Below, one piece after another: positions 1 to 28,950 of a stretch of DNA of 39,050 nucleotides. The stretch's first letter is position 1, and every line of letters begins with the position of its first letter. The DNA is taken from sequence record OZ035732.1. One strand, 5' to 3'. This stretch comes from Kayfunavirus PDP351P3. The position numbers were made by a program, and so were the translations under genes. The notes beneath the pieces were generated by a model. It worked only from the letters and a program-made list of their open reading frames with translations. It made no database searches and had not been told where the DNA came from.

Positions 1-29
1 TACAAAACGATTAAAGGAGGTGGTAAAAC

Positions 30-293
30 ATGACGCAGATGGACTTAGAGAAGTTCCTCTTGATGCTGGATACTGAACGTGCTCGCCTCATGCTGCAAGA
101 CCTGCGGGATGACTCTAAGCGTTCACCTCAGCTCTACAACGCCATTGAGAAGCTGCTTGCTCGTCACAACTTCGTGCTAAGCAAGGTGTCTGTGGACGAG
201 AAGACGCTGGCTGATATGGAGGCCCTGAACGCAGAGTACGATAAGGTGCTTTCAGCGACTGAGGATAATGACACCGGGTATGGTGTTCAATAA
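30..293 (+). CDS. small terminase subunit / DNA maturation protein A (T7 gp18-like)
   Basis: 87-aa ORF with AAAGGAGG RBS upstream; aligns over full length with T7 gp18 as recalled (LEMLDT...RSPQLYNAI.KLL.RH); synteny upstream of 18.5 and 19. Confidence 0.85.
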   Translation: MTQMDLEKFLLMLDTERARLMLQDLRDDSKRSPQLYNAIEKLLARHNFVLSKVSVDEKTLADMEALNAEYDKVLSATEDNDTGYGVQ

Positions 294-296
294 GTG

Positions 297-337
297 TTAG
301 ACTCAAGGTCATCTACAGGTGGCCTTTATGATTAACA
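297..337 (+). promoter_or_regulatory. conserved structured RNA element copy 1 (putative RNase III processing site, R18.5-like)
   Basis: Motif AGACTCAAGGTCAT-[small hairpin CTAC/GTGG]-GGCCTTTATGATTA, one of three copies, each about 20 nt upstream of an RBS; lower stem AAGG/CCTT. Confidence 0.45.
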
Positions 338-350
338 CTAAGGAGGTTAC

Positions 351-752
351 ATGAAAGATTCATACATAAGTGGCGGTTACTGGAAGGTTACTCGTAATGG
401 TAAGGTTCATGGAGTTCATAGATTACTATGGGAGGAAGCCTACGGTCCTATCCCAGATGGTTACGTCATAGACCACATTGATAGGAATCCTATGAATAAC
501 GAACTGTCAAACCTTAGGTGCATACCTAAAGGCGCAAACAAGGCTAACACTGTATCCTCTAGGGAACTACCTAAAGGCGTATACTCTAGGTTTGCTAAAC
601 GTCAAGGTATTACTGTGTACTATGGTGACATTAGGATGGGAGGTAAGAAAGAAACGCACGCTCCTACTAAGAATCTGATGGAAGTCGTGGAATGGGCTAA
701 GTCAACTCATAGTAGAATGCTTAAGGAGACATATGGTATTTCAAATGTTTAA
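351..752 (+). CDS. free-standing HNH homing endonuclease
   Basis: 133-aa ORF with AAGGAGG RBS; motif H-R-LLWEE-YGPIP-GYVIDHID-N-NN-SNLR shared with the two other HNH ORFs in the window; AT-richer codon usage (AGG, ATA, CTA) than neighbours; inserted between genes 18 and 18.5. Confidence 0.85.
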   Translation: MKDSYISGGYWKVTRNGKVHGVHRLLWEEAYGPIPDGYVIDHIDRNPMNNELSNLRCIPKGANKANTVSSRELPKGVYSRFAKRQGITVYYGDIRMGGKKETHAPTKNLMEVVEWAKSTHSRMLKETYGISNV

Positions 753-1179
753 GAGAGCGGCTCCGTGGTTACTTGCAGCAGTGATGTTTGCTGGTGGCTA
801 CCACACCGCTAACAATAAGTGGGAGGCTAAGGTCAATGCAGAATACACCTCGAATCTTAAGGCATCGGAAGATACAAGGCTTGCTGTCCAAGCTGAAGTC
901 AACAAAGTGTCCAAACGGTTTCAGGACGAAATGTCCTCGCTGGAAGGCAGCACTGATAGGATTATTGCTGACCTTCAGTCTGACAATAAGCGGCTGCGCA
1001 TCCGAGTCAAACCTACGAGTGGAACCACGCAAAGTGACGGTCGATGCGTCATTGATGGTTACGCCGAACTTGACGAACGAGATGCTAAACGTCTTATCGC
1101 CATCGGAGTGAAAGGAGACAAATGGATTAAGGCACTTCAGGACACTGTGAGAGCCTTACAGCAAGATAAGGAGGTGTAA
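733..1179 (+). CDS. i-spanin (Rz-like, T7 gp18.5-like)
   Basis: 148-aa ORF with N-terminal TM segment ([13 protein letters not shown]); aligns with recalled T7 gp18.5 ([20 protein letters not shown]...DERDAKR); start could instead be ATG 745. Confidence 0.8.
836..1111 (+). CDS. o-spanin (Rz1-like, T7 gp18.7-like) embedded in +1 frame of the i-spanin gene
   Basis: Alternate-frame ORF inside 18.5; GGAGG RBS 9 nt before ATG 836; lipobox LTISGC followed by ASES..., matching recalled T7 gp18.7 (PRWKGALIGL...ISGCASES...MLNV). Confidence 0.7.
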   Translation: MQNTPRILRHRKIQGLLSKLKSTKCPNGFRTKCPRWKAALIGLLLTFSLTISGCASESNLRVEPRKVTVDASLMVTPNLTNEMLNVLSPSE

Positions 1180-1181
1180 CC

Positions 1182-2945
1182 TTGAGTAAAGACTTAGTGG
1201 CCCGTCAGGCGCTAATGACTGCACGTATGAAGGCAGACTTCGTGTTCTTCCTGTTCGTCCTGTGGAAAGCTCTGTCACTCCCCGTCCCGACTCGCTGTCA
1301 GATTGATATGGCGAAGAAACTATCGGCTGGGGACAACAGGCGCTTCATCCTACAGGCGTTCCGTGGTATCGGGAAGTCCTTCATTACGTGTGCCTTCGTT
1401 GTCTGGAAGTTATGGAACAACCCAGACTTGAAGTTCATGATTGTGTCGGCCTCAAAGGAACGAGCCGATGCTAACTCCATCTTCATCAAGCGAATCATCG
1501 ACCTCATGCCTCAGCTTCAGGAACTCAAACCTAAGCAGGGACAGCGAGATGCGGTTATCAGCTTCGACGTTGGACCAGCCAAGCCAGACCACTCACCTTC
1601 GGTTAAGTCCGTTGGTATCACTGGTCAGTTGACTGGTAGTCGTGCTGACATCCTGATTGCCGATGACGTGGAGGTTCCGAACAACTCAGCGACTCAGGCC
1701 GCACGAGACCGTCTGTCAGAGCTTGTGAAAGAGTTCGACGCTATCCTGAAGCCGGGAGGTACAATCATCTATCTGGGTACTCCTCAGAACGAGATGACCT
1801 TGTATCGTGAGCTGGAAGGCCGTGGGTACACCACTACTATCTGGCCTGCTCGTTACCCACGTGATAAGAAGGACTGGCAGTCTTACGGCGACCGTCTGGC
1901 ACCGATGCTTCAGGCAGAGCTGGAAGAGGACCCTGAGTCCTTCTACTGGCGTCCGACTGATGAAGTACGCTTCGATGATACGGACCTGAAGGAACGCGAG
2001 TTGTCATATGGTAAAGCTGGCTTCGCTCTACAGTTCATGCTTAACCCGAACCTGAGTGATGCAGAGAAGTACCCTCTGAAGCTCCGTGACCTTATCGTAG
2101 CAGACTTGGACCCAGCATCCAGCCCAATGGTCTACCAATGGTTGCCGAACCCTCAGAACAAGCGTGAGGACGTTCCTAACGTTGGACTCATGGGTGACTC
2201 ATACCACACGTATCAGACTGTAGGTTCTGCCTTCAGTTCGTACACCCAGAAGATTCTGGTCATTGACCCTAGTGGTCGTGGTAAGGATGAAACTGGCTAT
2301 GCGGTACTATACCAGCTCAACGGCTACATCTTCGCTATGGAAGTTGGTGGTATGCGTGGTGGCTATGAAGACTCTACTCTGGAAGCGCTGGCTAAGATTG
2401 GTCGTAAGTGGAAGGTCAACGAATACGTCATTGAGGGTAACTTCGGTGATGGCATGTACCTTGAGCTATTCAAGCCTGTAGCGGCCCGTATTCATCCTGC
2501 TGCTGTAACTGAAGTGAAGAGTAAGGGTCAGAAGGAACTCCGCATATGTGACGTTCTGGAGCCTATCATGGGGTCTCACCGACTTATCGTTAACGCTGCT
2601 GCTATCGTCCAAGATTACCAGTCGGCCTCTGATAAGGATGGTGTTCGTAACCCTATCTACTCTCTCTTCTACCAGATGACACGTATCTCTCGTGAACGTG
2701 GAGCCTTGGCACACGATGACCGACTTGATGCTCTGGCTATCGGTGTACAGTTCTTCGTTGAGTCTATGGCTAAGGATGCCAACAAAGGCGAACGTGAAGT
2801 CACTGAGGAGTGGCTGGAGGAACAGATGGAGAACCCACGGAAAGGCTTCGAGTCCATCCACACTGAGTTCTGGGACAATGGGGTCCGGGTAACTCACGAT
2901 ACGGACGACGAGCTGGGGCTAGGGTCCTACATTACGTTCCACTAG
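1182..2945 (+). CDS. large terminase subunit / DNA maturation protein B (T7 gp19-like)
   Basis: 587-aa ORF, TTG start with AAGGAGG RBS; near-colinear match to recalled T7 gp19 ([72 protein letters not shown]). Confidence 0.95.
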
Positions 2946-3039
2946 CTTAATGAATAACTATGGGTGAAAGCTGCATGAATACGCAGTTAGTAACCTATAG
3001 TTACTACCAGTCTAACCTACTGTTTTACAAGGAGTTTGG

Positions 3040-3062
3040 ACTTAACTATCACTATAGGGAAG
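3040..3062 (+). promoter_or_regulatory. phage RNAP promoter (phiOR-like, downstream of gene 19)
   Basis: ACTTAACTATCACTATA-GGGAAG; matches the 11-member promoter family of this genome; predicted +1 G at 3057. Confidence 0.7.
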
Positions 3063-3241
3063 ACCCCCGGTTACTTATAGTATTACTGTAGTGAATATAC
3101 ATATGCAGACTTTATGCAAGACCTTAGGAGGCAGACTCCGAGTTCTTACCTAAGGCTTGCACCGATGGAAGGAGGGTGATATTAATCATAATCCCTCCAA
3201 TACAGATAGTAAAGACCATAGATACAGGAGGTATGTAGCAT

Positions 3242-3400
3242 ATGGCAAAGACCAAAGCTGTACTTAAAGCTCTGGCGACCAATCGAGCTACATACAGGTT
3301 TCTTACTGCTGTTCTACTTGCTGCTGGCGTTACTGCTGGAAGTCAGTGGGTCGGGTGGGTCGAGACTCTCGTATGTTCTCTGGTCTCTCAGTGTAATTAA
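3242..3400 (+). CDS. small hydrophobic protein (gene 19.5 position)
   Basis: 52-aa ORF with AGGAGG RBS, predicted TM segment (FLTAVLLAAGVTAG); position corresponds to T7 gene 19.5; no sequence match asserted. Confidence 0.4.
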   Translation: MAKTKAVLKALATNRATYRFLTAVLLAAGVTAGSQWVGWVETLVCSLVSQCN

Positions 3401-3561
3401 CGCAATCATGGTAACGATTCATGAGCGGAAGACCTAAGGTCAGTACGTGGATAAAGACTCACTCTACTGACCTTAGCTACTGTAGTCAAGGACTTTAGGT
3501 AACACCTTAAGAGAAGCTCACTTAGGGTCATCCTACTTATTGGTCTATCCTAGTGTCGCCT

Positions 3562-3602
3562 GACCTACGGTCCTTGACCTACAGTGGCTGTGGCCTACAG
3601 TA
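3562..3602 (+). repeat. short-repeat array (ACCTACRGT x3), candidate SRR-like repeats left of the terminal repeat
   Basis: GACCTACGGT, GACCTACAGT and GCCTACAGT within 40 bp. Confidence 0.5.
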
Positions 3603-3638
3603 GTGACGATGAGTTTGGACCAAAAGTTTGAGACCACA

Positions 3639-3840
3639 TCTCACAGTTCAAGAACCTCAAGTCTCCCCATAGGCCCTCTTTCAGTCCAGACCAAAGGCCC
3701 TACCCCAGTCTATCATAAGGTTGGACCGATGGTCAAGACGTTAGGTCGACGATAGGTCTAGGCTATGGCTTAGGGAAGGACGATAGGTTGGGACTATGGG
3801 TCTTCTTTGAGTCTCTATCTGTATCAGACCTTGAGTCACT
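3639..3840 (+). repeat. probable direct terminal repeat (single collapsed copy) containing the physical genome ends
   Basis: Begins with TCTCACAGT, the sequence that starts the T7 genome as I recall it; internal similarity to the T7 terminal repeat (TCCCCCATAGG, TCTCTATCTGT); flanked on both sides by ACCTACAGT arrays; boundaries approximate. Confidence 0.45.
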
Positions 3841-3925
3841 ACCTACAGTCTAACTACCTACAGTCTAACTACCTACAGTCATCGACCATCGGTACTGCCG
3901 CTACCTACAGTCAGAGACCTACAGT
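3836..3925 (+). repeat. short tandem repeat array (CTAACTACCTACAGT x3 plus 2 extra CCTACAGT), SRL-like
   Basis: Three tandem 15-bp units followed by two more CCTACAGT copies, directly right of the putative terminal repeat. Confidence 0.6.
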
Positions 3926-4036
3926 TAATAGACACAAAGGCTATAGACTTAAGGTCTAAGACATGTTAGTCAAAGACTATATCCTCTTACACCATGAGGC
4001 CGACGATAGCTTAATCAATATTATTTAAATTACCTA

Positions 4037-4065
4037 TTGACTATGGGTCTCGACTATGGCTTAAT
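4037..4065 (+). promoter_or_regulatory. candidate host sigma70 early promoter (A1-like)
   Basis: TTGACT-N17-CTTAAT; downstream sequence (CGTCAACACGACACGGCA) resembles the T7 A1 region as recalled. Confidence 0.4.
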
Positions 4066-4177
4066 AGCTTCCGTCAACACGACACGGCAACAACCGGATA
4101 GTGAAGACGCCGGGTCATCCCGGTTAAGTAGACAGCCTGCTAAGTCATACGAACAACAGGCAGATGACAGAAAGTAG

Positions 4178-4207
4178 TTGACAAGTAGTACAGACTTAAA
4201 GTAGTAT
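4178..4207 (+). promoter_or_regulatory. candidate host sigma70 early promoter (A3-like)
   Basis: TTGACA-N18-TAGTAT followed by GTACCACAT...CACTGAAA...CTCTTTAACAATCTGG, closely resembling the T7 A3 promoter and downstream leader as recalled. Confidence 0.5.
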
Positions 4208-4406
4208 GTACCACATCGAAACAACGGTGACGACCGACACTGAAACGGTCTACCTGAAGTCCTCTGACTGAAGGGAATGCTCTTTAACAATCTGGATAAA
4301 CTCTTAATGTGCGCCGATAGCGACTAACTACAGGGTCTTTGAGTCTACATCTGAAGGCCCTGACTGATAGTCACTAACACATACTTAACTTTGAGAGGAT
4401 ATAACT

Positions 4407-4916
4407 ATGGAACGTAACGCTAACGCATACTATGAGCTGCTGGCTGCAACTGTTGAAGCATTTAACGAGCGCATTCAGTACGACGAAATAGCTGAAGGCG
4501 ATGACTACTGCGATGCGCTGCATGAAGTCGTAGACGATATGGTTCCGCACTATTACCACGAGATTTTCACGGTGATGGCTGCCGATGGTATTGACCATGA
4601 GTTCGAAGACTCTGGGCTGATGCCTGAGACCAAGGACGTAACGTGTATACTACAAGCTCGCATCTATGAGGCACTGTATAATGATGTGTCTAATAGCTCG
4701 GATGTGGTATGGTTCGAGCCTGAAGAGGGCGACGAAAAGGCTGAATATTGGGTAGTTGATGCTAGAACAGGCGAGATAATTGAGCAAGCTGTATCACTTT
4801 ACGAGGCTATTGCATGTGCAAAAGACCTCTATGAGGCAGGTTTTCACATGCAGGTCGAAGACATCAATGATAACGTAGTGTTCGACCCTGCGTCTGCTGA
4901 GGAGGACTGCGAGTGA
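4407..4916 (+). CDS. ocr: Ocr-like DNA-mimic anti-restriction protein (gene 0.3) with about 55-aa C-terminal extension
   Basis: 169-aa highly acidic ORF; residues 1-105 align with recalled T7 Ocr ([43 protein letters not shown] vs [43 protein letters not shown]); first gene after the early promoters. Confidence 0.85.
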
Positions 4917-15923: not shown

Positions 15924-17939
15924 ATGTTTGACCTTAAGGATATTTGGGGTTCGGACATCGAGACCAACGGTCTCCTTGATACAGTATCCCAGTTTCACTG
16001 TGGGGTCCTGATTAACGCCGAGTCGAATGAGACCCTTAAGTATGGGGTAGCTCCGATGGTCGGTATCATCGGGGGCTTCAAAGAGTATGTGCAGAAGGTG
16101 GAAGAGATTGCCACATCACCTGATGGTATGCTGGTATTCCACAACGGTATCAACTATGACGTCCCGGCTATTGACAAGCTGAAGCGTCTGTACTTTGGTA
16201 AACGCTTTAACTTCCCGAAACACAAGATGATTGATACCTTGGTTCTGGGCCGCTTGATGTACCCAAACATTAAGTTCTCAGACATGGGCGCGGTGAAATC
16301 TGGTCGTCTGCCGCCTAAGATGATGGGACGCCAGTCTCTTGAGGCTTGGGGCTATCGTCTAGGTGAGATGAAGGGTGAGTACAAACACGATTACGTTGCC
16401 AAGTGCAAGGCCGAAGGTATCGAATATAAGTCTGGGGACGAATGGTTGTTCCCATCTCAGGAGATGCTGGACTATAACGTTCAAGACGTTGTGGTCACGC
16501 TGGCGTTGTTCAAGAAGTTCCTGACTGACAAGTATTACTTCCAGTCTGAACAGTTCGCTTTCGAACAGATTTATGCGTTGCGTCTGGAACATGATGCTGC
16601 GTGGACCTGCGCGAAGATGGAGCGTAATGGCTATCCGATGAACACCGAGATGGTCGAAGGCTTATATCGTGAACTCACTGTCAAACGTGCGGAGTTACTG
16701 GACAAGCTGCGCTCTACTTTCGGTAGCTGGTACGCACCAAAGGGAGGCAAGGAGTTCTTCAGGCATCCACGGACAGGTAAGGACCTTCCGAAGTACCCGA
16801 GAGTCGTGTATCCTAAGGTAGGTGGCATCTTTAAGAAGCCGAAGAACAAAGCTCAACGCTTAGGTCTTGAACCTTGTGAACTCGATACGCGAGACACGAT
16901 GGAGGGAGCACCCTTCACGCCAATCACTTACGTTGAGTTTAATCCGGGAAGCGGAGACCACTTAGCGAAAGTCCTGATGGAGCGTGGTTGGGAGCCTGTG
17001 GACTTCACTGACACTGGGAAACCGGTAGTTGATGACGAGACGTTAGAACACGTTAAGTTGCCAGACGCAGAGGCTCAGGCTTGCGTAGAGCTGGTCCGTG
17101 AGTATCTGGTAGTCCAGAAGAGAATCGGGCAGGCTGCTGAAGGTAAGAACGCATGGTTGAAACTTGTAGGTCCAGACGGACGTATGCATGGTTCAATCAA
17201 TCCATGTGGTGCAGTAACAGGACGTGCGACCCATAGTTCACCAAACATGGCTCAGGTCCCTGCTAACGGTGCTCCGTATGGTGAGACTTGCCGTGGTGCT
17301 TTCGGTGCAGCGTGGAACAAGAAGGACGGTAAGCCAGACCCTTGGATTCAAGTAGGCGTGGATGCTTCAGGTCTTGAGCTTCGTTGTCTGGGGAACCGAG
17401 CGGCTCCGTTTGATGGTGGAGATTATGCGAAGACTGTGGTCGAAGGTGACATCCACTGGGCCAACGCAGTCAACGCTGGGTTAGCACCTAACGTCCCACG
17501 CGACAAGTCGAACCACGACCACGAGGCTTTCCGTAACAACGCTAAGACGTTCATCTATGCGTTCCTGTATGGTGCAGGGGCAGCTAAGATTGGACTGATA
17601 GTAGGCGGTGGGAAGAAGGAAGGTTCAGCTCTCATGAAGAAATTCATTGAGGGCACACCAGCCATCAAGGACCTCAGGGAAGCTGTGAGTAATACGTTAA
17701 TCTCAGACTCTAAGTGGGTAGATGGTGAGAACATCGTTAAGTGGAAACGCCGATGGTTGCGTGGACTTGATGGTCGCCGTATCCACATCCGGTCTCCACA
17801 CTCAGCACTTAACGCCTTACTTCAAGGCGATGGTGCGGTAATCTGTAAGCACTGGATTGTCGAGACTGAACGTATGCTCGAAGAGGCCGGGTATGTCCAC
17901 GGCTGGGAAGGAGACTTCGCATACATGGCATGGGTGCAT
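15924..17939 (+). CDS. DNA polymerase (T7 gene 5-like), exon 1
   Basis: 672 codons; SDIE.N.LL..V..FHCGV, HNG..YDVPA, NVQDVVVT, GSWY.PKGG.E.F.HPRTGK.LPKYPR, DASGLELRC, AKTFIY.FLYGAG, KWKRRW..GLDGR..H.RSPH.ALN.LLQ, FAYMAWVH match recalled T7 gp5; frame then runs into intron. Confidence 0.9.
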
Positions 17940-18540
17940 AAACTATCTCATTGTGCACATTAAATCTGGTGAACTCGGTGAAACCCTTCTAGGGCAATAC
18001 CGAGCCAAGCCATAGGGAGGATATATGAGAGGCAAGAAGTTAATCCTTGCGACCACAGAGAGTGGTTGTATCATCCCTACGTCACACAAACTTAATGCTG
18101 ATGGTTATTTCCGAAAGAGGACTAACGGTGTCCTAGAGATGTATCACAGGACAGTATGGAAGGAACAGCACGGAGATATACCAGAAGGGTATGAAGTAGA
18201 CCACAAGTGTAGGAACAGGGCATGCTGTAATGCAGAGCATCTCCAGTTACTAGAAGGGTCTGAGCATGCAGTCAAGACAAACAGTGAACGCTACGCTGAC
18301 CGTAAAGAGTCTGCGAGGGAATACTGGTTGGAGACTGGATGTACAGGAACACACTTAGGTGAGAAGTTTGGTGTTACGTTCTCTGCCGCGTGTAAGTGGA
18401 TTAGAGAGTGGAAGGCGTAGAGACTATCCGAAAGGAGTAGGGCCGAGGGTGAGATTCCCTCGTTACCCGAAGCGCCAGACAGTCAACTCAAAGGCTGATG
18501 ATATAGTCCGACACTCCTAGTAATAGGAGAATACAGAAAG
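17940..18540 (+). mobile_element. group I intron interrupting DNA polymerase motif C, carrying an HNH homing endonuclease gene
   Basis: 5' exon ends in U (17939), intron ends in G (18540); exon GUGCAU can pair with intron GUGCAC (17953-17958) as P1; P7 strands AGAGACUA (18419-18426) and GAUAUAGUCC (18500-18509); flanking exons rejoin in frame to give ...AWVH-DEIQV... Confidence 0.8.
18025..18420 (+). CDS. intron-encoded HNH homing endonuclease
   Basis: 131-aa ORF with GGGAGG RBS inside the intron; HNH family motif (YHRTVWKEQHGDIPEGYEVDHKCRNRACCNAEHLQL) shared with ORFs 351-752 and 21443-21835; AGG/AGA-rich codon usage. Confidence 0.85.
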   Translation: MRGKKLILATTESGCIIPTSHKLNADGYFRKRTNGVLEMYHRTVWKEQHGDIPEGYEVDHKCRNRACCNAEHLQLLEGSEHAVKTNSERYADRKESAREYWLETGCTGTHLGEKFGVTFSAACKWIREWKA

Positions 18541-18696
18541 GATGAGATTCAAGTAGCTTGTCGTACTCAGGAGATTGCCGAAGAAGTCGTCAAGATTGCT
18601 CAACTTGCTATGCGTAAGGTGGGTGAGTTCTATAACTTTAAATGTGTTCTTGATACGGAGGGTAAGATTGGACCCACGTGGAAAGAATGTCATTAA
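18541..18696 (+). CDS. DNA polymerase (T7 gene 5-like), exon 2
   Basis: 51 codons DEIQVACRTQEIAEEVVKIAQLAMRKVGEFYNFKCVLDTEGKIGPTWKECH*, colinear with recalled T7 gp5 C-terminus (DEIQVGCRTEEIA...RCLLDTEGKMGPNWAICH). Confidence 0.85.
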   Translation, partial: DEIQVACRTQEIAEEVVKIAQLAMRKVGEFYNFKCVLDTEGKIGPTWKECH

Positions 18697-21205: not shown

Positions 21206-21446
21206 ATCAATCAGTAAGGCTTTCAAGAAAGTGGTGAAAAGTACGTTAGGGACAGTGGGTCTTGGCTCTGACGATGCTCCTAAGGTTGTTGAGGCTCAGA
21301 CCCCAGCAGCACCAGTGGAAGTACCGAACGACCAAGTGGAGGATGTGGATACTGAAACAACCGCATCTGATGAGAAGAAAGTGAAGCGTTCTGGTAAGCG
21401 TAGCCTTCAGGTCTCTCGCACCTCTGGTGGAGGCATCTCTATATGA
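21198..21446 (+). CDS. gp7.3-like tail/adsorption protein
   Basis: 82 aa, GTG start with AAGGAG RBS; MGK...KK..K, central VEVP, KRSGKRSLQVSRTSGGGISI vs recalled T7 gp7.3 ...GGKKSLSVARSSGGGINI. Confidence 0.75.
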   Translation: MGKSISKAFKKVVKSTLGTVGLGSDDAPKVVEAQTPAAPVEVPNDQVEDVDTETTASDEKKVKRSGKRSLQVSRTSGGGISI

Positions 21447-21835
21447 CACCATGTCATGAATGGGGTGGATATTGCACCAAGGATGGCTACGGTGAAACTA
21501 GGGTAGATGGGCGCAAGGTTCGCGTTCATCGCCTAGAGTGGACGAAACACTACGGACCCATTCCGCATGACAAAGTGGTTCGCCACAAGTGTGACAACCC
21601 TAAGTGTTTTAATATTGAACACCTAGAGTTAGGAACAACACAAGATAACACGGCTGACAGAGTGTCTCGTGGTCGAAGCGCCAAAGGAGAGGATAACGGT
21701 AACGCCATCCTCACTATTGATATTGTCAATGAGATTCGCGAGAGTGGCATGTCTCAGCGCAAAATAGCGAAGACCTATGGAGTGTCACAGTCTACCGTAT
21801 CTAAAATCAAACGCAATGTAACGTGGAGGGCATAA
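21443..21835 (+). CDS. HNH endonuclease with C-terminal helix-turn-helix (gene 7.7 position)
   Basis: 130 aa; VHRLEWTKHYGPIPHDKVVRHKCDNPKCFNIEHLEL (HNH); C-terminal QRKIAKTYGVSQSTVSKIKRN (HTH-like); T7 gene 7.7 is also an HNH-type gene. Confidence 0.85.
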   Translation: MTPCHEWGGYCTKDGYGETRVDGRKVRVHRLEWTKHYGPIPHDKVVRHKCDNPKCFNIEHLELGTTQDNTADRVSRGRSAKGEDNGNAILTIDIVNEIRESGMSQRKIAKTYGVSQSTVSKIKRNVTWRA

Positions 21836-24379: not shown

Positions 24380-24402
24380 ACTAAACTATCACTATAGGGA
24401 GA
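24380..24402 (+). promoter_or_regulatory. phage RNAP promoter (phi10-like, strong late promoter)
   Basis: ACTAAACTATCACTATA-GGGAGACC; +1 to +6 GGGAGA identical to T7 class III consensus; about 100-nt leader containing AAACTTTATC (epsilon-enhancer-like) and AGGAGA RBS. Confidence 0.85.
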
Positions 24403-25683: not shown

Positions 25684-25722
25684 AACCCCTTGGGTGCCTT
25701 CGGGTGCTTGAGGGGTTTTTTG
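25684..25722 (+). terminator. T-phi-like terminator downstream of capsid gene
   Basis: AAACCCCTTGGGTGCCTTCGGGTGCTTGAGGGGTTTTTTG; GC-rich hairpin plus U-tract; 3' half CTTGAGGGGTTTTTTG identical to T7 T-phi as recalled. Confidence 0.8.
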
Positions 25723-25742: not shown

Positions 25743-26309
25743 ATGGCTCAATACATTCCACTGAATGCTAACGATGACTTAGATGCCATCAACGATATGT
25801 TAGCTGCTATCGGTGAACCAGCAGTCCTACAGCTTGACGAGGGTAACGCTGATGTCTCGAATGCTCAACGTATCCTACATCGTGTCAATCGTCAGGTCCA
25901 AGCTAAAGGATGGAACTTTAACATCAACGAAGCTGCTGTCCTGACACCTGATGTCCAAGACAATAGGATTCGATTCCTACCGTCATACCTTCGTGTAATG
26001 ACTGCCGGGGCCACCAGCTATTATAGCAACATGGGTGGATACCTGTACGACCTGTCCACTCAGTCAACCACTTTCACCGACCCTATAACGGTAGAGCTTG
26101 TTGAGATGAAACCATTCTCTGAGATGCCAGTGGTCTTCAGGGACTACATCGTTACCAAGGCTAGCCGTGAGTTCAACGCTAAGTTCTTCGGTAGCCCAGA
26201 GTCAGAGCTATACCTTCGTGAGCAGGAAGCAGAACTCTATCAGCAGGTTATGGAGTACGAGATGGACACTGGTCGCTACAACATGATGTCTGACATCGGG
26301 AGGGACTAA
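25743..26309 (+). CDS. tail tubular protein A (T7 gp11-like)
   Basis: 188 aa; D.L..IGEP.V..L.EGNAD...A.RIL...NRQ.Q..GW.FNI.E, ASR.FN..FFG.PE, EYEMD.G.YNM match recalled T7 gp11. Confidence 0.9.
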   Translation: MAQYIPLNANDDLDAINDMLAAIGEPAVLQLDEGNADVSNAQRILHRVNRQVQAKGWNFNINEAAVLTPDVQDNRIRFLPSYLRVMTAGATSYYSNMGGYLYDLSTQSTTFTDPITVELVEMKPFSEMPVVFRDYIVTKASREFNAKFFGSPESELYLREQEAELYQQVMEYEMDTGRYNMMSDIGRD

Positions 26310-26536
26310 TGGCTAGTCACAACCTGAAGATTCACCGCCAGCACTTTGGTCCGGTACAACTAGGTCTAAAGACAGCAGAGCTGAGACTTAACGACCGGGA
26401 CTTTAAGGTTGGCGACTGGCTTATTCTGAATGAGTGGGACAACGGGTACACTGGACAACAGGTAGCACGTAAGGTTGTCCACATTGCTGACGTTGGTGAC
26501 ATCGCTGAGGGATACGTCCTAATGAGTATGATTTAA
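26309..26536 (+). CDS. ASCH/DUF3850-like small protein inserted between tail tubular genes
   Basis: 75 aa; H.LKI....F.PV..G.KT.E.R.NDRDFKVGDWLIL.EWD...YTG......V..I.......GYVLMS fits the DUF3850 (ASCH-fold) pattern as I remember it; T7 has no gene here. Confidence 0.6.
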   Translation: MASHNLKIHRQHFGPVQLGLKTAELRLNDRDFKVGDWLILNEWDNGYTGQQVARKVVHIADVGDIAEGYVLMSMI

Positions 26537-26545
26537 GGAGGGCCT

Positions 26546-28903
26546 ATGCCACTTATCACACAAAGCATAAAAAATCTTAAAGGTGGAATTAGCCAGCAGC
26601 CTGACATCCTGAGGTTCTCAGACCAAGGCGAGGAGCAAGTTAACTGCTGGTCATCAGAGAGTGATGGACTCCAGAAGCGTCCACCTACAGTCTTCAAGCG
26701 ACGTCTTAACATCGACGTTGGGAGCAACCCTAAGTTCCACCTGATTAACCGTGATGAGCAGGAGCAGTATTACATCGTGTTCAACGGGACCGACATTAAA
26801 GTAGTTGACTTGAGCGGTAATCAATACTCAGTGTCCGGTGCAGTAGACTACGTTAATACATCCAACCCGCGAGATGACATCCGTGTCGTCACTGTTGCAG
26901 ACTATACGTTCATCGTGAACCGTAAGGTTGTCGTTAAAGGTGGAAGCGAGAAGTCACACTCTGGTTATAATAGTAAAGCTCGTGCTTTAATAAACCTGCG
27001 TGGTGGACAGTATGGTCGCACCCTTAAGGTAGGAATCAACGGAGGCGTTAAGGTTTCGCATAAGTTGCCAGCAGGTAATGATGCCGAGAATGACCCACCT
27101 AAGGTGGATGCTCAGGCCATCGGTGCAGCTCTGAGAGACCTTCTTGTTGCTGCTTACCCTACCTTCACGTTCGACCTTGGGTCTGGCTTCCTGTTAATCA
27201 CTGCCCCTTCAGGGACTGACATTAACTCAGTGGAGACGGAGGATGGCTACGCTAACCAGCTAATCAGCCCAGTACTCGACACGGTGCAAACAATCTCTAA
27301 GTTACCTCTTGCAGCTCCAAATGGGTACATCATTAAGATTCAAGGTGAGACCAACAGTAGCGCCGATGAATATTACGTGATGTATGACTCCAACACTAAG
27401 ACGTGGAAGGAGACAGTAGAGCCGGGAGTGGTCACTGGGTTCGATAACACCACAATGCCACATGCTCTGGTTAGACAATCTGACGGCTCCTTTGAGTTCA
27501 AGACTCTGGACTGGTCTAAGCGTGGTGCTGGTAATGATGACACAAACCCTATGCCTAGCTTCGTGGATGCCACGATTAACGATGTGTTCTTCTACAGGAA
27601 TAGGCTGGGGTTCTTGTCAGGCGAGAACGTAGTCATGAGCCGTTCAGCAAGCTACTTTGCGTTCTTCCCTAAGAGTGTGGCGACACTGAGTGATGATGAT
27701 CCTATTGACGTAGCTGTGAGTCACCCTAGAATCTCAATCCTTAAGTATGCCGTTCCGTTTAGTGAGCAGCTACTACTTTGGTCAGATGAGGTGCAGTTCG
27801 TGATGACAAGCTCAGGGGTCCTTACCTCGAAGTCTATCCAGCTTGATGTAGGCTCAGAGTTTGCCTTAGGTGACAATGCCAGACCGTTCGCTGTAGGACG
27901 CTCAGTCTTCTTCTCAGCGCCTCGTGGGTCATTCACCAGTATTAAGCGATACTTCGCTGTAGCAGATGTGTCTGACGTGAAGGATGCCGATGATACAACT
28001 GGTCACGTACTGTCCTACATCCCTAACGGGGTGTTTGATATTCAAGGTACAGGGACTGAGAACTACATCTGCGTCAACTCTACAGGTGCATACAACAGAA
28101 TCTACATCTACAAGTTCTTGTTTAAGGACGGCGTACAGCTTCAAGCCTCTTGGTCGCACTGGGAGTTCCCTAAAGCTGATAAGATTCTGGCGTCTGCGTC
28201 GATTGGCTCTACCATGTTCATTGTTCGTCAGCACCAAGGCGGCGTGGACCTTGAGCACCTTAAGTTCATCAAGGAGGCCACTGACTTCCCGTCAGAGCCG
28301 TATAGACTACACGTTGACTCCAAGGTGTCTATGGTCATTCCAATTGGCTCGTTTAATGCTGACACCTATAAGACTACGGTTGACATTGGTTCTGCTTATG
28401 GTGGAAACGCTCCGTCTCCCGGTCGGTACTATCTGATTGACAGTCAGGGTACCTACGTGGACCTTGGTGAATTGACCAGTATCTCTACTGAGGTTATCCT
28501 CAACGGCGATTGGTCAGGACGCACAGTGTTCATCGGACGGTCTTATCTAATGTCTTACAAGTTCTCACGGTTCCTGATTAAGATTGAAGACGAGAGTGGT
28601 ACTCAGTCTGAAGACACTGGTCGTCTACAGCTTCGTAGGGCTTGGGTCAACTACAAGGACACTGGCGCTCTTAGACTCATTGTCAGAAACGGTGAGCGGG
28701 AGTTCGTGAACACCTTTAATGGGTACACCCTTGGTCAGCAAACCATCGGGACTACCAACATTGGGGATGGTCAGTATCGCTTCGCTATGAATGGTAACGC
28801 ATTAACCACGAGTCTAACCTTAGAGTCAGATTATCCTACCCCAGTGTCCATCGTTGGCTGTGGCTGGGAGGCGTCATACGCTAAGAAAGCTCGTTCCGTC
28901 TAA
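26546..28903 (+). CDS. tail tubular protein B (T7 gp12-like)
   Basis: 785 aa; QSIKNLKGGISQQPDILR, MPHALVR, INDVFF.RNRLGFLSGEN, DDDPIDVAVS, ILKYAVPFSE.LL.WSD, GRLQLRRAWVNY, IVGCGWE match recalled T7 gp12. Confidence 0.97.
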   Translation: MPLITQSIKNLKGGISQQPDILRFSDQGEEQVNCWSSESDGLQKRPPTVFKRRLNIDVGSNPKFHLINRDEQEQYYIVFNGTDIKVVDLSGNQYSVSGAVDYVNTSNPRDDIRVVTVADYTFIVNRKVVVKGGSEKSHSGYNSKARALINLRGGQYGRTLKVGINGGVKVSHKLPAGNDAENDPPKVDAQAIGAALRDLLVAAYPTFTFDLGSGFLLITAPSGTDINSVETEDGYANQLISPVLDTVQTISKLPLAAPNGYIIKIQGETNSSADEYYVMYDSNTKTWKETVEPGVVTGFDNTTMPHALVRQSDGSFEFKTLDWSKRGAGNDDTNPMPSFVDATINDVFFYRNRLGFLSGENVVMSRSASYFAFFPKSVATLSDDDPIDVAVSHPRISILKYAVPFSEQLLLWSDEVQFVMTSSGVLTSKSIQLDVGSEFALGDNARPFAVGRSVFFSAPRGSFTSIKRYFAVADVSDVKDADDTTGHVLSYIPNGVFDIQGTGTENYICVNSTGAYNRIYIYKFLFKDGVQLQASWSHWEFPKADKILASASIGSTMFIVRQHQGGVDLEHLKFIKEATDFPSEPYRLHVDSKVSMVIPIGSFNADTYKTTVDIGSAYGGNAPSPGRYYLIDSQGTYVDLGELTSISTEVILNGDWSGRTVFIGRSYLMSYKFSRFLIKIEDESGTQSEDTGRLQLRRAWVNYKDTGALRLIVRNGEREFVNTFNGYTLGQQTIGTTNIGDGQYRFAMNGNALTTSLTLESDYPTPVSIVGCGWEASYAKKARSV

Positions 28904-28927: not shown

Positions 28928-28950
28928 CCTTAACTATCACTATAGGGACT
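28928..28950 (+). promoter_or_regulatory. phage RNAP promoter (phi13-like)
   Basis: CCTTAACTATCACTATA-GGGACT. Confidence 0.75.

What the first reader, a model, noticed from the sequence alone, without database searches (positions are those of the whole stretch)
26309..26536. ASCH/DUF3850-like moron inserted between tail tubular protein genes A and B
A 75-aa ORF translationally coupled to gp11 (ATGA overlap at 26309) fits the DUF3850 / ASCH-fold pattern (H.LKI...F..V..G.KT.E.R.NDRDFKVGD.L.L.E......YTG......V..I......GYV). T7 has nothing between genes 11 and 12. ASCH/PUA-like domains bind RNA or modified nucleic acids, and the function in phages is unknown. Sitting in the middle of the late operon, it would be expressed late and at high level.
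Basis: partly seen in the sequence, partly recalled or inferred. Interest (0 to 1): 0.55.

Follow-up and report, generated by a model that had tools for sequence, protein, structure and literature searches.

The report
Small DUF3850/ASCH gene between tail genes
A real 75-codon gene for a tiny ASCH-fold (DUF3850) protein of untested function sits between the two tail-tube genes of this K1F-like coliphage; about 80% of related database phage records carry it and several already label it, and it is dispensable because phage K1F has cleanly deleted it.

Summary

The window is a Kayfunavirus. The same gene is identical or nearly identical in about 150 GenBank phages, labelled 'RNA-binding protein', 'DUF3850' or gene 11.05. 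The identification is therefore correct but not new.

- The overlap is TAATG (one base), not ATGA.
- It is not a moron in the strict sense. It has no promoter or terminator of its own, and its GC content equals that of its flanks.
- It lies downstream of the T-phi-like terminator, so 'high level' is unproven.

K1F has 100% identical gp11 and no DUF3850 anywhere. Its junction looks like an exact 237-nt deletion, so the protein is not needed to build tails.

Elsewhere the family (more than 16,000 clusters) sits in early, replication or nin-like regions. It lacks the YqfB catalytic Thr and Glu and is mildly acidic. My best guess is a nucleotide- or base-recognising, possibly hydrolytic, accessory protein. 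No one has tested the function.

The parts
26309..26536 (+). DUF3850/ASCH ORF, 75 aa, 8.5 kDa, pI 6.4. Carries the ASCH octapeptide G19-L-K21-T-A-E24-L-R26 and the DUF3850 loop N28-D29-R30.
26298..26304 (+). Shine-Dalgarno GGGAGGG for the ORF, written in synonymous codons (Gly-Arg) of the last codons of gene 11.
   Evidence: present in all 16 DUF3850+ loci and in the two deletion derivatives; replaced by GGTCGA or AGCCGA in the 10 loci where gp12 has its own spacer SD.
26307..26311 (+). TAATG stop/start overlap of gene 11 and the ORF (one shared base).
26535..26545 (+). Spacer carrying the SD AAGGAGGG for gene 12. It overlaps the ORF's stop codon TAA (26534-26536).
   Evidence: In each lineage this spacer matches the spacer of the DUF3850-minus relatives with the same gp12 type.
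25743..26309 (+). Gene 11, tail tubular protein A (context, upstream coupling partner).
26546..28903 (+). Gene 12, tail tubular protein B / nozzle (context, downstream gene).
25684..25722 (+). T-phi-like intrinsic terminator between genes 10 and 11. Transcripts of the ORF must read through it.
   Evidence: The homologous feature is annotated in EcoDS1.
24382..24400 (+). Phage RNA polymerase promoter (phi10 equivalent), the nearest promoter upstream of the ORF.
   Evidence: 11 matches in the window against 0.04 expected by chance. EcoDS1 annotation.
28930..28948 (+). Phage promoter (phi13 equivalent), the next promoter downstream. No promoter lies between this one and 24382.

Best explanation
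The ORF encodes a non-structural accessory protein of 8.5 kDa. It is a minimal ASCH/PUA-like beta-barrel of the DUF3850 family.

Shown: it is a real gene under selection. It is transcribed only as part of the late 10-11-12 transcript, downstream of the T-phi-like terminator. It is translated by coupling to gene 11, using a TAATG overlap and an SD written in synonymous codons of gene 11. It is dispensable for making tails and for lytic growth, because K1F and a sister phage deleted exactly the ORF plus its spacer (237 nt) while keeping 100% identical gp11.

Inferred: the protein works through the conserved polar cleft typical of ASCH domains. The cleft residues are K21, E24 and R26 on strand 2, the N28-D29-R30 loop, and H4, K7, D36 and E42. 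I think it recognises one nucleotide or base, either free or at or within a nucleic acid, and probably processes it chemically. It does not look like a protein that coats RNA as a polyanion binder.

The family's usual home is the early, replication or nin-like module of phages and prophages, so the target is more likely in nucleic-acid or nucleotide metabolism than in the virion.

My confidence by step: identity and fold about 0.97; non-structural accessory role about 0.8; single-nucleotide or base cleft with possible catalysis about 0.35. The overall figure given is a blend of these.

For: Real, translated gene: pN/pS 0.146, with variable sites 11/12/41 by codon position. The SD covaries with the presence of a coupled ORF in 28 loci.

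Operon context: phage promoters only at 24382 and 28930, with a terminator at about 25684-25722.

Dispensable and non-structural: K1F has gp11 100% identical and gp12 N-terminus 93% identical but no ORF. A six-frame HMM search finds no DUF3850 anywhere in the K1F genome. 12 of the 26 informative related loci (two of the 28 tabulated are gp11 contig-end fragments) lack it.

Family context: a lambdoid nin-like region, DUF551-DUF3850-DUF1367-YbcO-RusA. Enterococcus prophages carry it between the methylase and the terminase. It is in the early region of a T1-like phage, between helicase and primase in DS8, and after gene A in a P2-like phage. Known fusions are to ParB-CTPase, HTH domains, a dATP/dGTP pyrophosphohydrolase and DUF551.

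Cleft: K21, E24, R26, N28, D29, R30, G35 and E42 are invariant, and H4, K7, D36, Y69 and S73 are at least 90% conserved, across members 44-84% identical to the window protein. The same core is conserved in 95 fusion proteins.

Not a basic RNA coater: the window protein has pI 6.4, and 131 stand-alone members have a median pI of 6.1, with 81% below 7.
Against: No biochemical or genetic datum exists for any DUF3850 protein. The ligand and any catalysis are pure inference.

CR44b's ortholog at the same slot has lost N28-D29-R30 and K7 yet remains an open ORF. If that copy is functional, the loop is not essential.

The late-operon position differs from the family's usual early context, so the Kayfunavirus copy could have a different role.

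No conserved aromatic cage of the kind seen in modified-base readers is evident.

I could not inspect the model's coordinates to confirm that the conserved residues line one pocket.
Confidence: 0.5

Rival explanations
1. It is what the databases call it: a generic RNA-binding protein. It would bind phage or host RNA and modulate translation or stability late in infection, for example by tuning gp12 synthesis.
For: The ASCH superfamily was originally predicted to bind RNA. PHROG 986 and RefSeq both carry the label 'RNA-binding protein'. The gene sits in the mRNA directly upstream of the gp12 start.
Against: The label is transferred from the ASCH Pfam description and has not been tested. The protein is slightly acidic, with pI 6.4 and a family median of 6.1. 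Its invariant residues include four acidic ones. YqfB-type ASCH proteins showed no nucleic-acid binding (PMC9599836). K1F and Dev2-like phages express gp12 without it.
Confidence: 0.15
2. It is a counter-defence protein. It would bind or destroy a modified nucleotide or nucleotide signal, for example m6-dAMP released when gp3 and gp6 degrade host DNA. This would blind host immune sensors that use PUA-like domains.
For: A PUA-Cal-HAD defence system senses m6-dAMP that arises from phage-induced chromosome breakdown (bioRxiv 10.64898/2026.01.15.699771). DUF3850 is enriched in phages and prophages, and ParB fusions have been suggested to act in anti-defence. Patchy presence and absence among near-identical phages is typical of anti-defence genes.
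Against: There is no direct evidence. No conserved aromatic cage is present. Late expression behind T-phi is poor timing for blocking an early sensor. The only PADLOC match is insignificant (E=0.007).
Confidence: 0.1
3. It is a virion or tail-assembly factor, co-produced with gp11 and gp12 because it acts on them or is packaged.
For: Its position between the tail genes and its translational coupling to gp11. It occupies the same slot in about 170 phage records.
Against: K1F and L004 have identical gp11 and about 94% identical gp12 N-terminus without it. Dev2-like phages also lack it. Everywhere else the family lies in non-structural modules. The virion mass-spectrometry studies I found are uninformative: SH3 and SH4 lack the gene, and in B1 only six gel bands were identified, missing even gp11 and gp12.
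Confidence: 0.07
4. It is a hitch-hiking cassette with little or no benefit to the phage, kept by linkage in a slot that tolerates insertions.
For: The slot also accepts HNH endonuclease ORFs, in Hafnia phage yong1 and phage B1 ORF41. The ORF has been lost cleanly at least once. CR44b carries a degenerate copy.
Against: pN/pS is 0.146. Family-wide invariant residues are retained in 15 of 16 copies. The dedicated SD is maintained by synonymous codon choice in gene 11. The gene is present in about 80% of Kayfunavirus-like records.
Confidence: 0.08
5. It is a YqfB-type N4-acylcytidine amidohydrolase that salvages acetylated cytidine.
Against: The nucleophile Thr24 of YqfB is Glu24 here. The protein ends at residue 75 and nothing aligns to the Glu74 region. 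hhalign gives only 21% probability over 38 columns.
Confidence: 0.03

Closest known systems
The unnamed ORF between genes 11 and 12 of Escherichia phage EcoDS1 (YP_002003774.1, 'RNA-binding protein'); gene 11.05 of Citrobacter phage CR44b; Bas105_0046
   Same: Same slot and the same TAATG coupling. The EcoDS1 protein is 100% identical. 48 phage records are at least 99% identical and 95 more are 95-99% identical. This is the orthologous gene.
   Different: Nothing functional differs. CR44b's copy is only 45% identical and has lost the NDR loop.
PDB 3IUW, 'activating signal cointegrator' NP_814290.1 of Enterococcus faecalis V583 (structural-genomics entry, DUF3850)
   Different: It comes from a Gram-positive host. 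Its genomic setting was not examined here, and no function has been published.
E. coli YqfB (PDB 1TE7 / 9KYF), ASCH-domain N4-acetylcytidine amidohydrolase
   Same: The ASCH barrel. The octapeptide is in register: G19, K21, T22 and R26 align, as does the F-K-x-G-D turn.
   Different: 103 aa against 75 aa. Catalytic Thr24 is Glu24 here. The C-terminal part carrying Glu74 is absent. Only 17-19% identity.
Zymomonas mobilis ASCH (PDB 5GUQ), reported ssRNA-specific ribonuclease
   Different: 143 aa and 7% identity. Its catalytic residues were not compared here.
ParB-CTPase-DUF3850 fusion proteins of phages and prophages (PNAS 2025, PMC12704722)
   Same: They contain the same DUF3850 module and are phage-enriched.
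   Different: They are multi-domain, CTP-binding and encoded next to parA. The window protein is the bare domain in a tail operon.

Membership tests
DUF3850 (Pfam PF12961), PUA-like/ASCH clan | Score above the Pfam gathering threshold over the whole domain | tested here: met
   70.1 bits against 22.9. Residues 4-73 align to profile positions 2-76 of 77.
DUF3850 (Pfam PF12961), PUA-like/ASCH clan | Conserved R-x-N-D-R loop after strand 2 | tested here: met
   R26-L-N28-D29-R30 is present. It is invariant in 30 diverse members and matches 3IUW.
ASCH superfamily | Octapeptide GxKxxExR | tested here: met
   G19-L-K21-T-A-E24-L-R26. Pfam ASCH 26.2 bits against 21.2. That this motif defines the superfamily is from Iyer et al. 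2006, recalled from memory.
ASCH superfamily | [quoted passage not shown] | tested here: met
ASCH superfamily | Binds RNA or another nucleic acid | not testable with these tools
The mildly acidic pI gives no support.
YqfB-type amidohydrolase | Catalytic triad Lys21-Thr24-Glu74, plus Arg26 | tested here: not met
   K21 and R26 are present. Position 24 is Glu. Nothing aligns beyond YqfB residue 49.
Moron (extra gene between genes that are adjacent in relatives, forming an autonomous transcription unit, often of deviant composition) | Present in some phages and absent from close relatives between the same two genes | tested here: met
   K1F, L004 and 10 other loci lack it.
Moron (extra gene between genes that are adjacent in relatives, forming an autonomous transcription unit, often of deviant composition) | Own promoter and/or terminator | tested here: not met
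   No phage promoter lies between 24382 and 28930. No sigma-70-like or terminator-like site lies at 26200-26600.
Moron (extra gene between genes that are adjacent in relatives, forming an autonomous transcription unit, often of deviant composition) | Base composition different from the flanks | tested here: not met
   GC 0.487 against 0.483 for gp11, 0.489 for gp12 and 0.499 for the whole window.
T7-group virion / tail protein | Required together with gp11 and gp12, or found in particles | tested here: not met
   K1F makes tails with identical gp11 and has no DUF3850 in its genome. Presence in particles has no usable data.
Modified-base reader of the PUA clan (YTH / EVE / SRA type) | Conserved aromatic cage around the modified base | tested here: inconclusive

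The most novel reading that the evidence does not exclude
The stand-alone DUF3850 barrel is a new kind of phage enzyme or decoy. It would act on a modified or damaged nucleotide that appears when the phage degrades the host chromosome, for example m6-dAMP or an acylated or otherwise marked base. By hydrolysing or sequestering that nucleotide it would stop PUA-type or other nucleotide-sensing host immunity from firing. The Kayfunavirus presence/absence polymorphism would then reflect which hosts carry such sensors.
Probability: 0.1. Interest if true: 0.7.

Novelty: already known. Interest (0 to 1): 0.27.

Why it matters
DUF3850 is a very large family with no tested function. It has 16,175 clusters at 50% identity with E<=0.001, and the members and contexts examined here were mostly in phages and prophages. 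The domain assignment in this window adds nothing new.

What this analysis adds is a natural genetic handle. Kayfunaviruses with near-identical tail genes exist with the gene (EcoDS1, Bas105, this window), with an exact deletion of it (K1F), and with a motif-degenerate copy (CR44b). They are all easily engineered T7-like phages, so a clean loss- and gain-of-function test across hosts and defence systems would be cheap. A positive result would annotate thousands of phage genes.

Tried and rejected
(1) RNA element instead of a protein. The 271-nt region folds only modestly better than shuffles (z -2.2, 5 of 200 shuffles as good). Rfam finds nothing there. Substitutions are concentrated at third codon positions. 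Rejected.

(2) Antisense ORFs 26332-26502 and 26366-26482. The codon-position pattern fits the + frame. Treated as spurious.

(3) YqfB-type enzyme. Rejected on the missing Thr24 and Glu74.

(4) NCBIfam gave no hit. PADLOC gave only an insignificant hit, PDC-M07B at E=0.007.

(5) Fusion partners as a clue to function. Of 95 long homologues, most extensions have no Pfam match. The matches were 10 DUF551 and single cases of a dATP/dGTP pyrophosphohydrolase and of LexA, Crp and MarR HTH domains. Suggestive of DNA or nucleotide biology but not decisive.

(6) Virion proteomics in the literature. Citrobacter phages SH3 and SH4 lack the gene. Enterobacter phage B1 has it as ORF40, but only six gel bands were identified. 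No information.

(7) A second copy elsewhere in K1F or in the window. None found.

(8) Literature searches for ASCH plus anti-defence, and for Kayfunavirus plus RNA-binding protein, found nothing on this gene.

(9) A genome-wide search for genes that co-occur with DUF3850 among Kayfunaviruses was considered but not run. The sample would be small and phylogenetically non-independent.

Full report
**What is there**

The window is a complete, circularly permuted genome of a Kayfunavirus (K1F/EcoDS1-like, Autographiviridae). The best GenBank matches are 93-95% identical over about 90% of the first 25 kb and 95-97% identical around the finding.

It lies between gene 11 (25743-26309, Pfam Tube 3.6e-46) and gene 12 (26546-28903, Phage_nozzle).

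The gene 11 stop and the ORF start share one base (TAATG, 26307-26311), not ATGA. A Shine-Dalgarno sequence GGGAGGG (26298-26304) lies within the last codons of gene 11. A second one, AAGGAGGG (26535-42), follows the ORF's stop and serves gene 12.

**Is it a gene?**

Yes, for three reasons.
- Fifteen distinct alleles from relatives give pN/pS 0.146 (gene 11: 0.032). Their variable sites fall 11/12/41 across codon positions.
- The SD co-varies with what follows it. In all 16 loci that carry the ORF, gene 11 ends ...GGG AGG/AGA GAC TAATG. In the 10 loci without the ORF where gene 12 has its own spacer SD, the same Gly-Arg codons read GGT CGA (AGC CGA, Ser-Arg, in L027). So the SD is kept only where something must start at the overlap.
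- The RNA of the region is not notably structured (z -2.2), and Rfam finds nothing.

**What the protein is**

- Sequence matches: Pfam DUF3850 1.9e-19 (70 bits, cut-off 22.9) and ASCH 1.4e-5. PHROG 986 2.8e-35. PDB 3IUW, an unpublished structural-genomics DUF3850 protein from Enterococcus faecalis, at 1.2e-10 with the single sequence and 2.1e-19 with a profile.
- Motifs: the ASCH octapeptide (G19-L-K21-T-A-E24-L-R26) and the DUF3850 loop (N28-D29-R30) are both present.
- Conservation: across 30 members that are 44-84% identical, K21, E24, R26, N28, D29, R30, G35 and E42 are invariant. H4, L6, K7, V16, G19, D36, L38, L40, G49, Y69, V70 and S73 are at least 90% conserved.
- Family size: 16,175 clusters at 50% identity with E<=0.001, and 5,598 at <=1e-10.

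**Already known**

The same ORF is annotated in EcoDS1 ('RNA-binding protein'), in Bas105 and in CR44b (gene 11.05). Other records call it 'DUF3850 domain-containing protein' or 'activating signal cointegrator'. The translated match is at least 99% identical in 48 phage records and 95-99% identical in 95 more. All these labels are homology transfers. Among the papers that mention DUF3850, none tests a function.

**Operon context and the 'moron' label**

The phage-promoter consensus (TAAACTATCACTATAGGNA) occurs 11 times in the window against 0.04 expected by chance. The nearest copies are at 24382 (phi10) and 28930 (phi13), and none lies near the ORF. A T-phi-like terminator sits at about 25684-25722 between genes 10 and 11 (annotated in EcoDS1). 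No sigma-70-like or terminator-like site flanks the ORF. Its GC content (0.487) equals that of its neighbours.

It is therefore a promoterless accessory ORF inside the late 11-12 message, reached by read-through of the terminator. It is not an autonomous moron, and 'high level' is not established.

**Presence and absence**

T7 has a 23-nt spacer between genes 11 and 12. K1F, the type Kayfunavirus, has gene 12 starting at the gene 11 stop. The alignment shows a clean 237-nt difference, from ATG...CCT to ATG. Among the 26 informative related sequences (IMG/VR loci plus the K1F, T7 and EcoDS1 reference loci, leaving out the two contig-end fragments that hold only the start of gene 11), 14 carry the ORF and 12 do not, T7 among them. 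In GenBank about 170-180 of about 215 Kayfunavirus-like records carry it.

K1F and its sister L004 nest inside the ORF-bearing clade on both flank trees. They keep the GGGAGG + TAATG signals, now fused to gene 12, and they lack the spacer SD that every other lineage has. I therefore read their state as an exact secondary deletion. K1F has no DUF3850 anywhere else (six-frame HMM search, best E 2.2). It keeps gp11 100% identical to the window's.

A second presence/absence pair exists in the Dev2-type gene 12 lineage: L015 with the ORF and L012 without. The spacer after the ORF is lineage-specific and matches the spacer of ORF-less relatives with the same gene 12 type. Homologous recombination in the flanks therefore probably moves the cassette.

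The slot also receives HNH endonuclease ORFs, in Hafnia phage yong1 and Enterobacter phage B1 ORF41. CR44b holds a 45%-identical ortholog that has lost K7 and N28-D29-R30. It is a single lineage, so selection on it cannot be measured.

**What it probably does**

Because K1F dispenses with it, the protein is not a tail component or an obligatory assembly factor. Elsewhere the family lives in non-structural modules:
- a lambdoid nin-like region, DnaB ... DUF551-DUF3850-DUF1367-YbcO-RusA;
- Enterococcus prophages, between a cytosine methylase and the terminase;
- the early region of a T1-like phage;
- between helicase and primase in DS8;
- fused to an N-terminal extension in a protein annotated as an exonuclease, in the early region of Herelleviridae;
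- directly after replication gene A in a P2-like phage.

Fusions join it to ParB-CTPase domains, to HTH domains, to a dATP/dGTP pyrophosphohydrolase and to DUF551.

The protein is not basic. Its pI is 6.4, and 131 stand-alone members have a median pI of 6.1. Half of its invariant polar residues are acidic. That fits a specific ligand or catalytic cleft better than a polyanion binder. YqfB-type ASCH enzymes act on a free nucleoside and do not bind nucleic acids (PMC9599836).

The YqfB chemistry itself is excluded. In the register-preserving alignment, K21, T22 and R26 match, but the nucleophile Thr24 is Glu24, and the part carrying Glu74 is absent.

My committed reading is a late-made, non-structural ASCH module. 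Its cleft would recognise, and possibly hydrolyse, a single nucleotide or base, either free or in nucleic acid. I put this at about 0.35. The rivals (generic RNA binder, counter-defence decoy, virion factor, neutral hitch-hiker, YqfB-type enzyme) are scored separately in the report.

**Verdict**

The domain assignment is right. The 'moron', 'ATGA' and 'high level' details are not. The feature is already annotated in many genomes, and the biological function remains unknown.

The useful new points are three: the synonymous-SD covariation, which argues for translation; the reading of K1F as an exact deletion derivative; and the resulting natural +/-/degenerate allelic series for experiments.

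Noticed in passing
window 15924-18693 (insert 17940-18540): The DNA polymerase gene is split. Residues 1-671 are encoded at 15927-17939 and residues 672-722 at 18541-18693, in another frame (tblastn with the Bas105 polymerase). The 601-nt insert carries an HNH_3 ORF at 18025-18420 (5e-16). It matches Rfam Intron_gpI over the full model at 38 bits, below the gathering score of 50, with local E 4.4e-8. The whole-window gathering scan missed it. K1F annotates the same arrangement as a joined CDS plus an HNH endonuclease, so this is a known type of T7-like polymerase group I intron.
   Followed up: yes
window 351-752 and 21443-21835: Two further free-standing HNH_3 endonuclease ORFs (4e-18 and 3.4e-17; the second has a C-terminal HTH). 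One lies between the small terminase gene and the spanin gene, the other between gene 7.3 and the portal gene. Bas105 has only short spacers at both places, so they look like homing-endonuclease insertions specific to this phage lineage.
   Followed up: partly
L030 1140-1580 (Hafnia phage yong1); Enterobacter phage B1 ORF41 (PMC12785254): In these relatives a further ORF sits between the DUF3850 ORF and gene 12, overlapping the start of gene 12: annotated as an endonuclease in yong1, and a 158-aa hypothetical protein (ORF41) in B1. The 11/12 slot is a recurrent insertion site.
   Followed up: partly
L026 3567-3791 (Citrobacter phage CR44b gene 11.05): An ortholog of the DUF3850 ORF at the same slot, 45% identical. 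The C-terminal half is conserved, but K7 and the N-D-R loop are replaced (LRPSIPEIKAGDW). It is still an intact 74-codon ORF with the same SD and TAATG coupling. Only CR44b has this form.
   Followed up: partly
window 4407-4916: The Ocr homologue is 169 aa. Pfam ocr (4.4e-30) covers only residues 8-96. This matches the length of K1F gene 0.3, but Bas105's copy is 114 aa. The C-terminal roughly 70 residues have no assigned domain.
   Followed up: no
window 1-4400: The window is a permuted whole genome. It opens with late genes 18, 18.5 and 19 (30-2945). An approximately 1.4-kb stretch without long ORFs follows, containing the first phage promoter at 3042, before gene 0.3. The physical genome ends and terminal repeat presumably lie in this stretch.
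   Followed up: no
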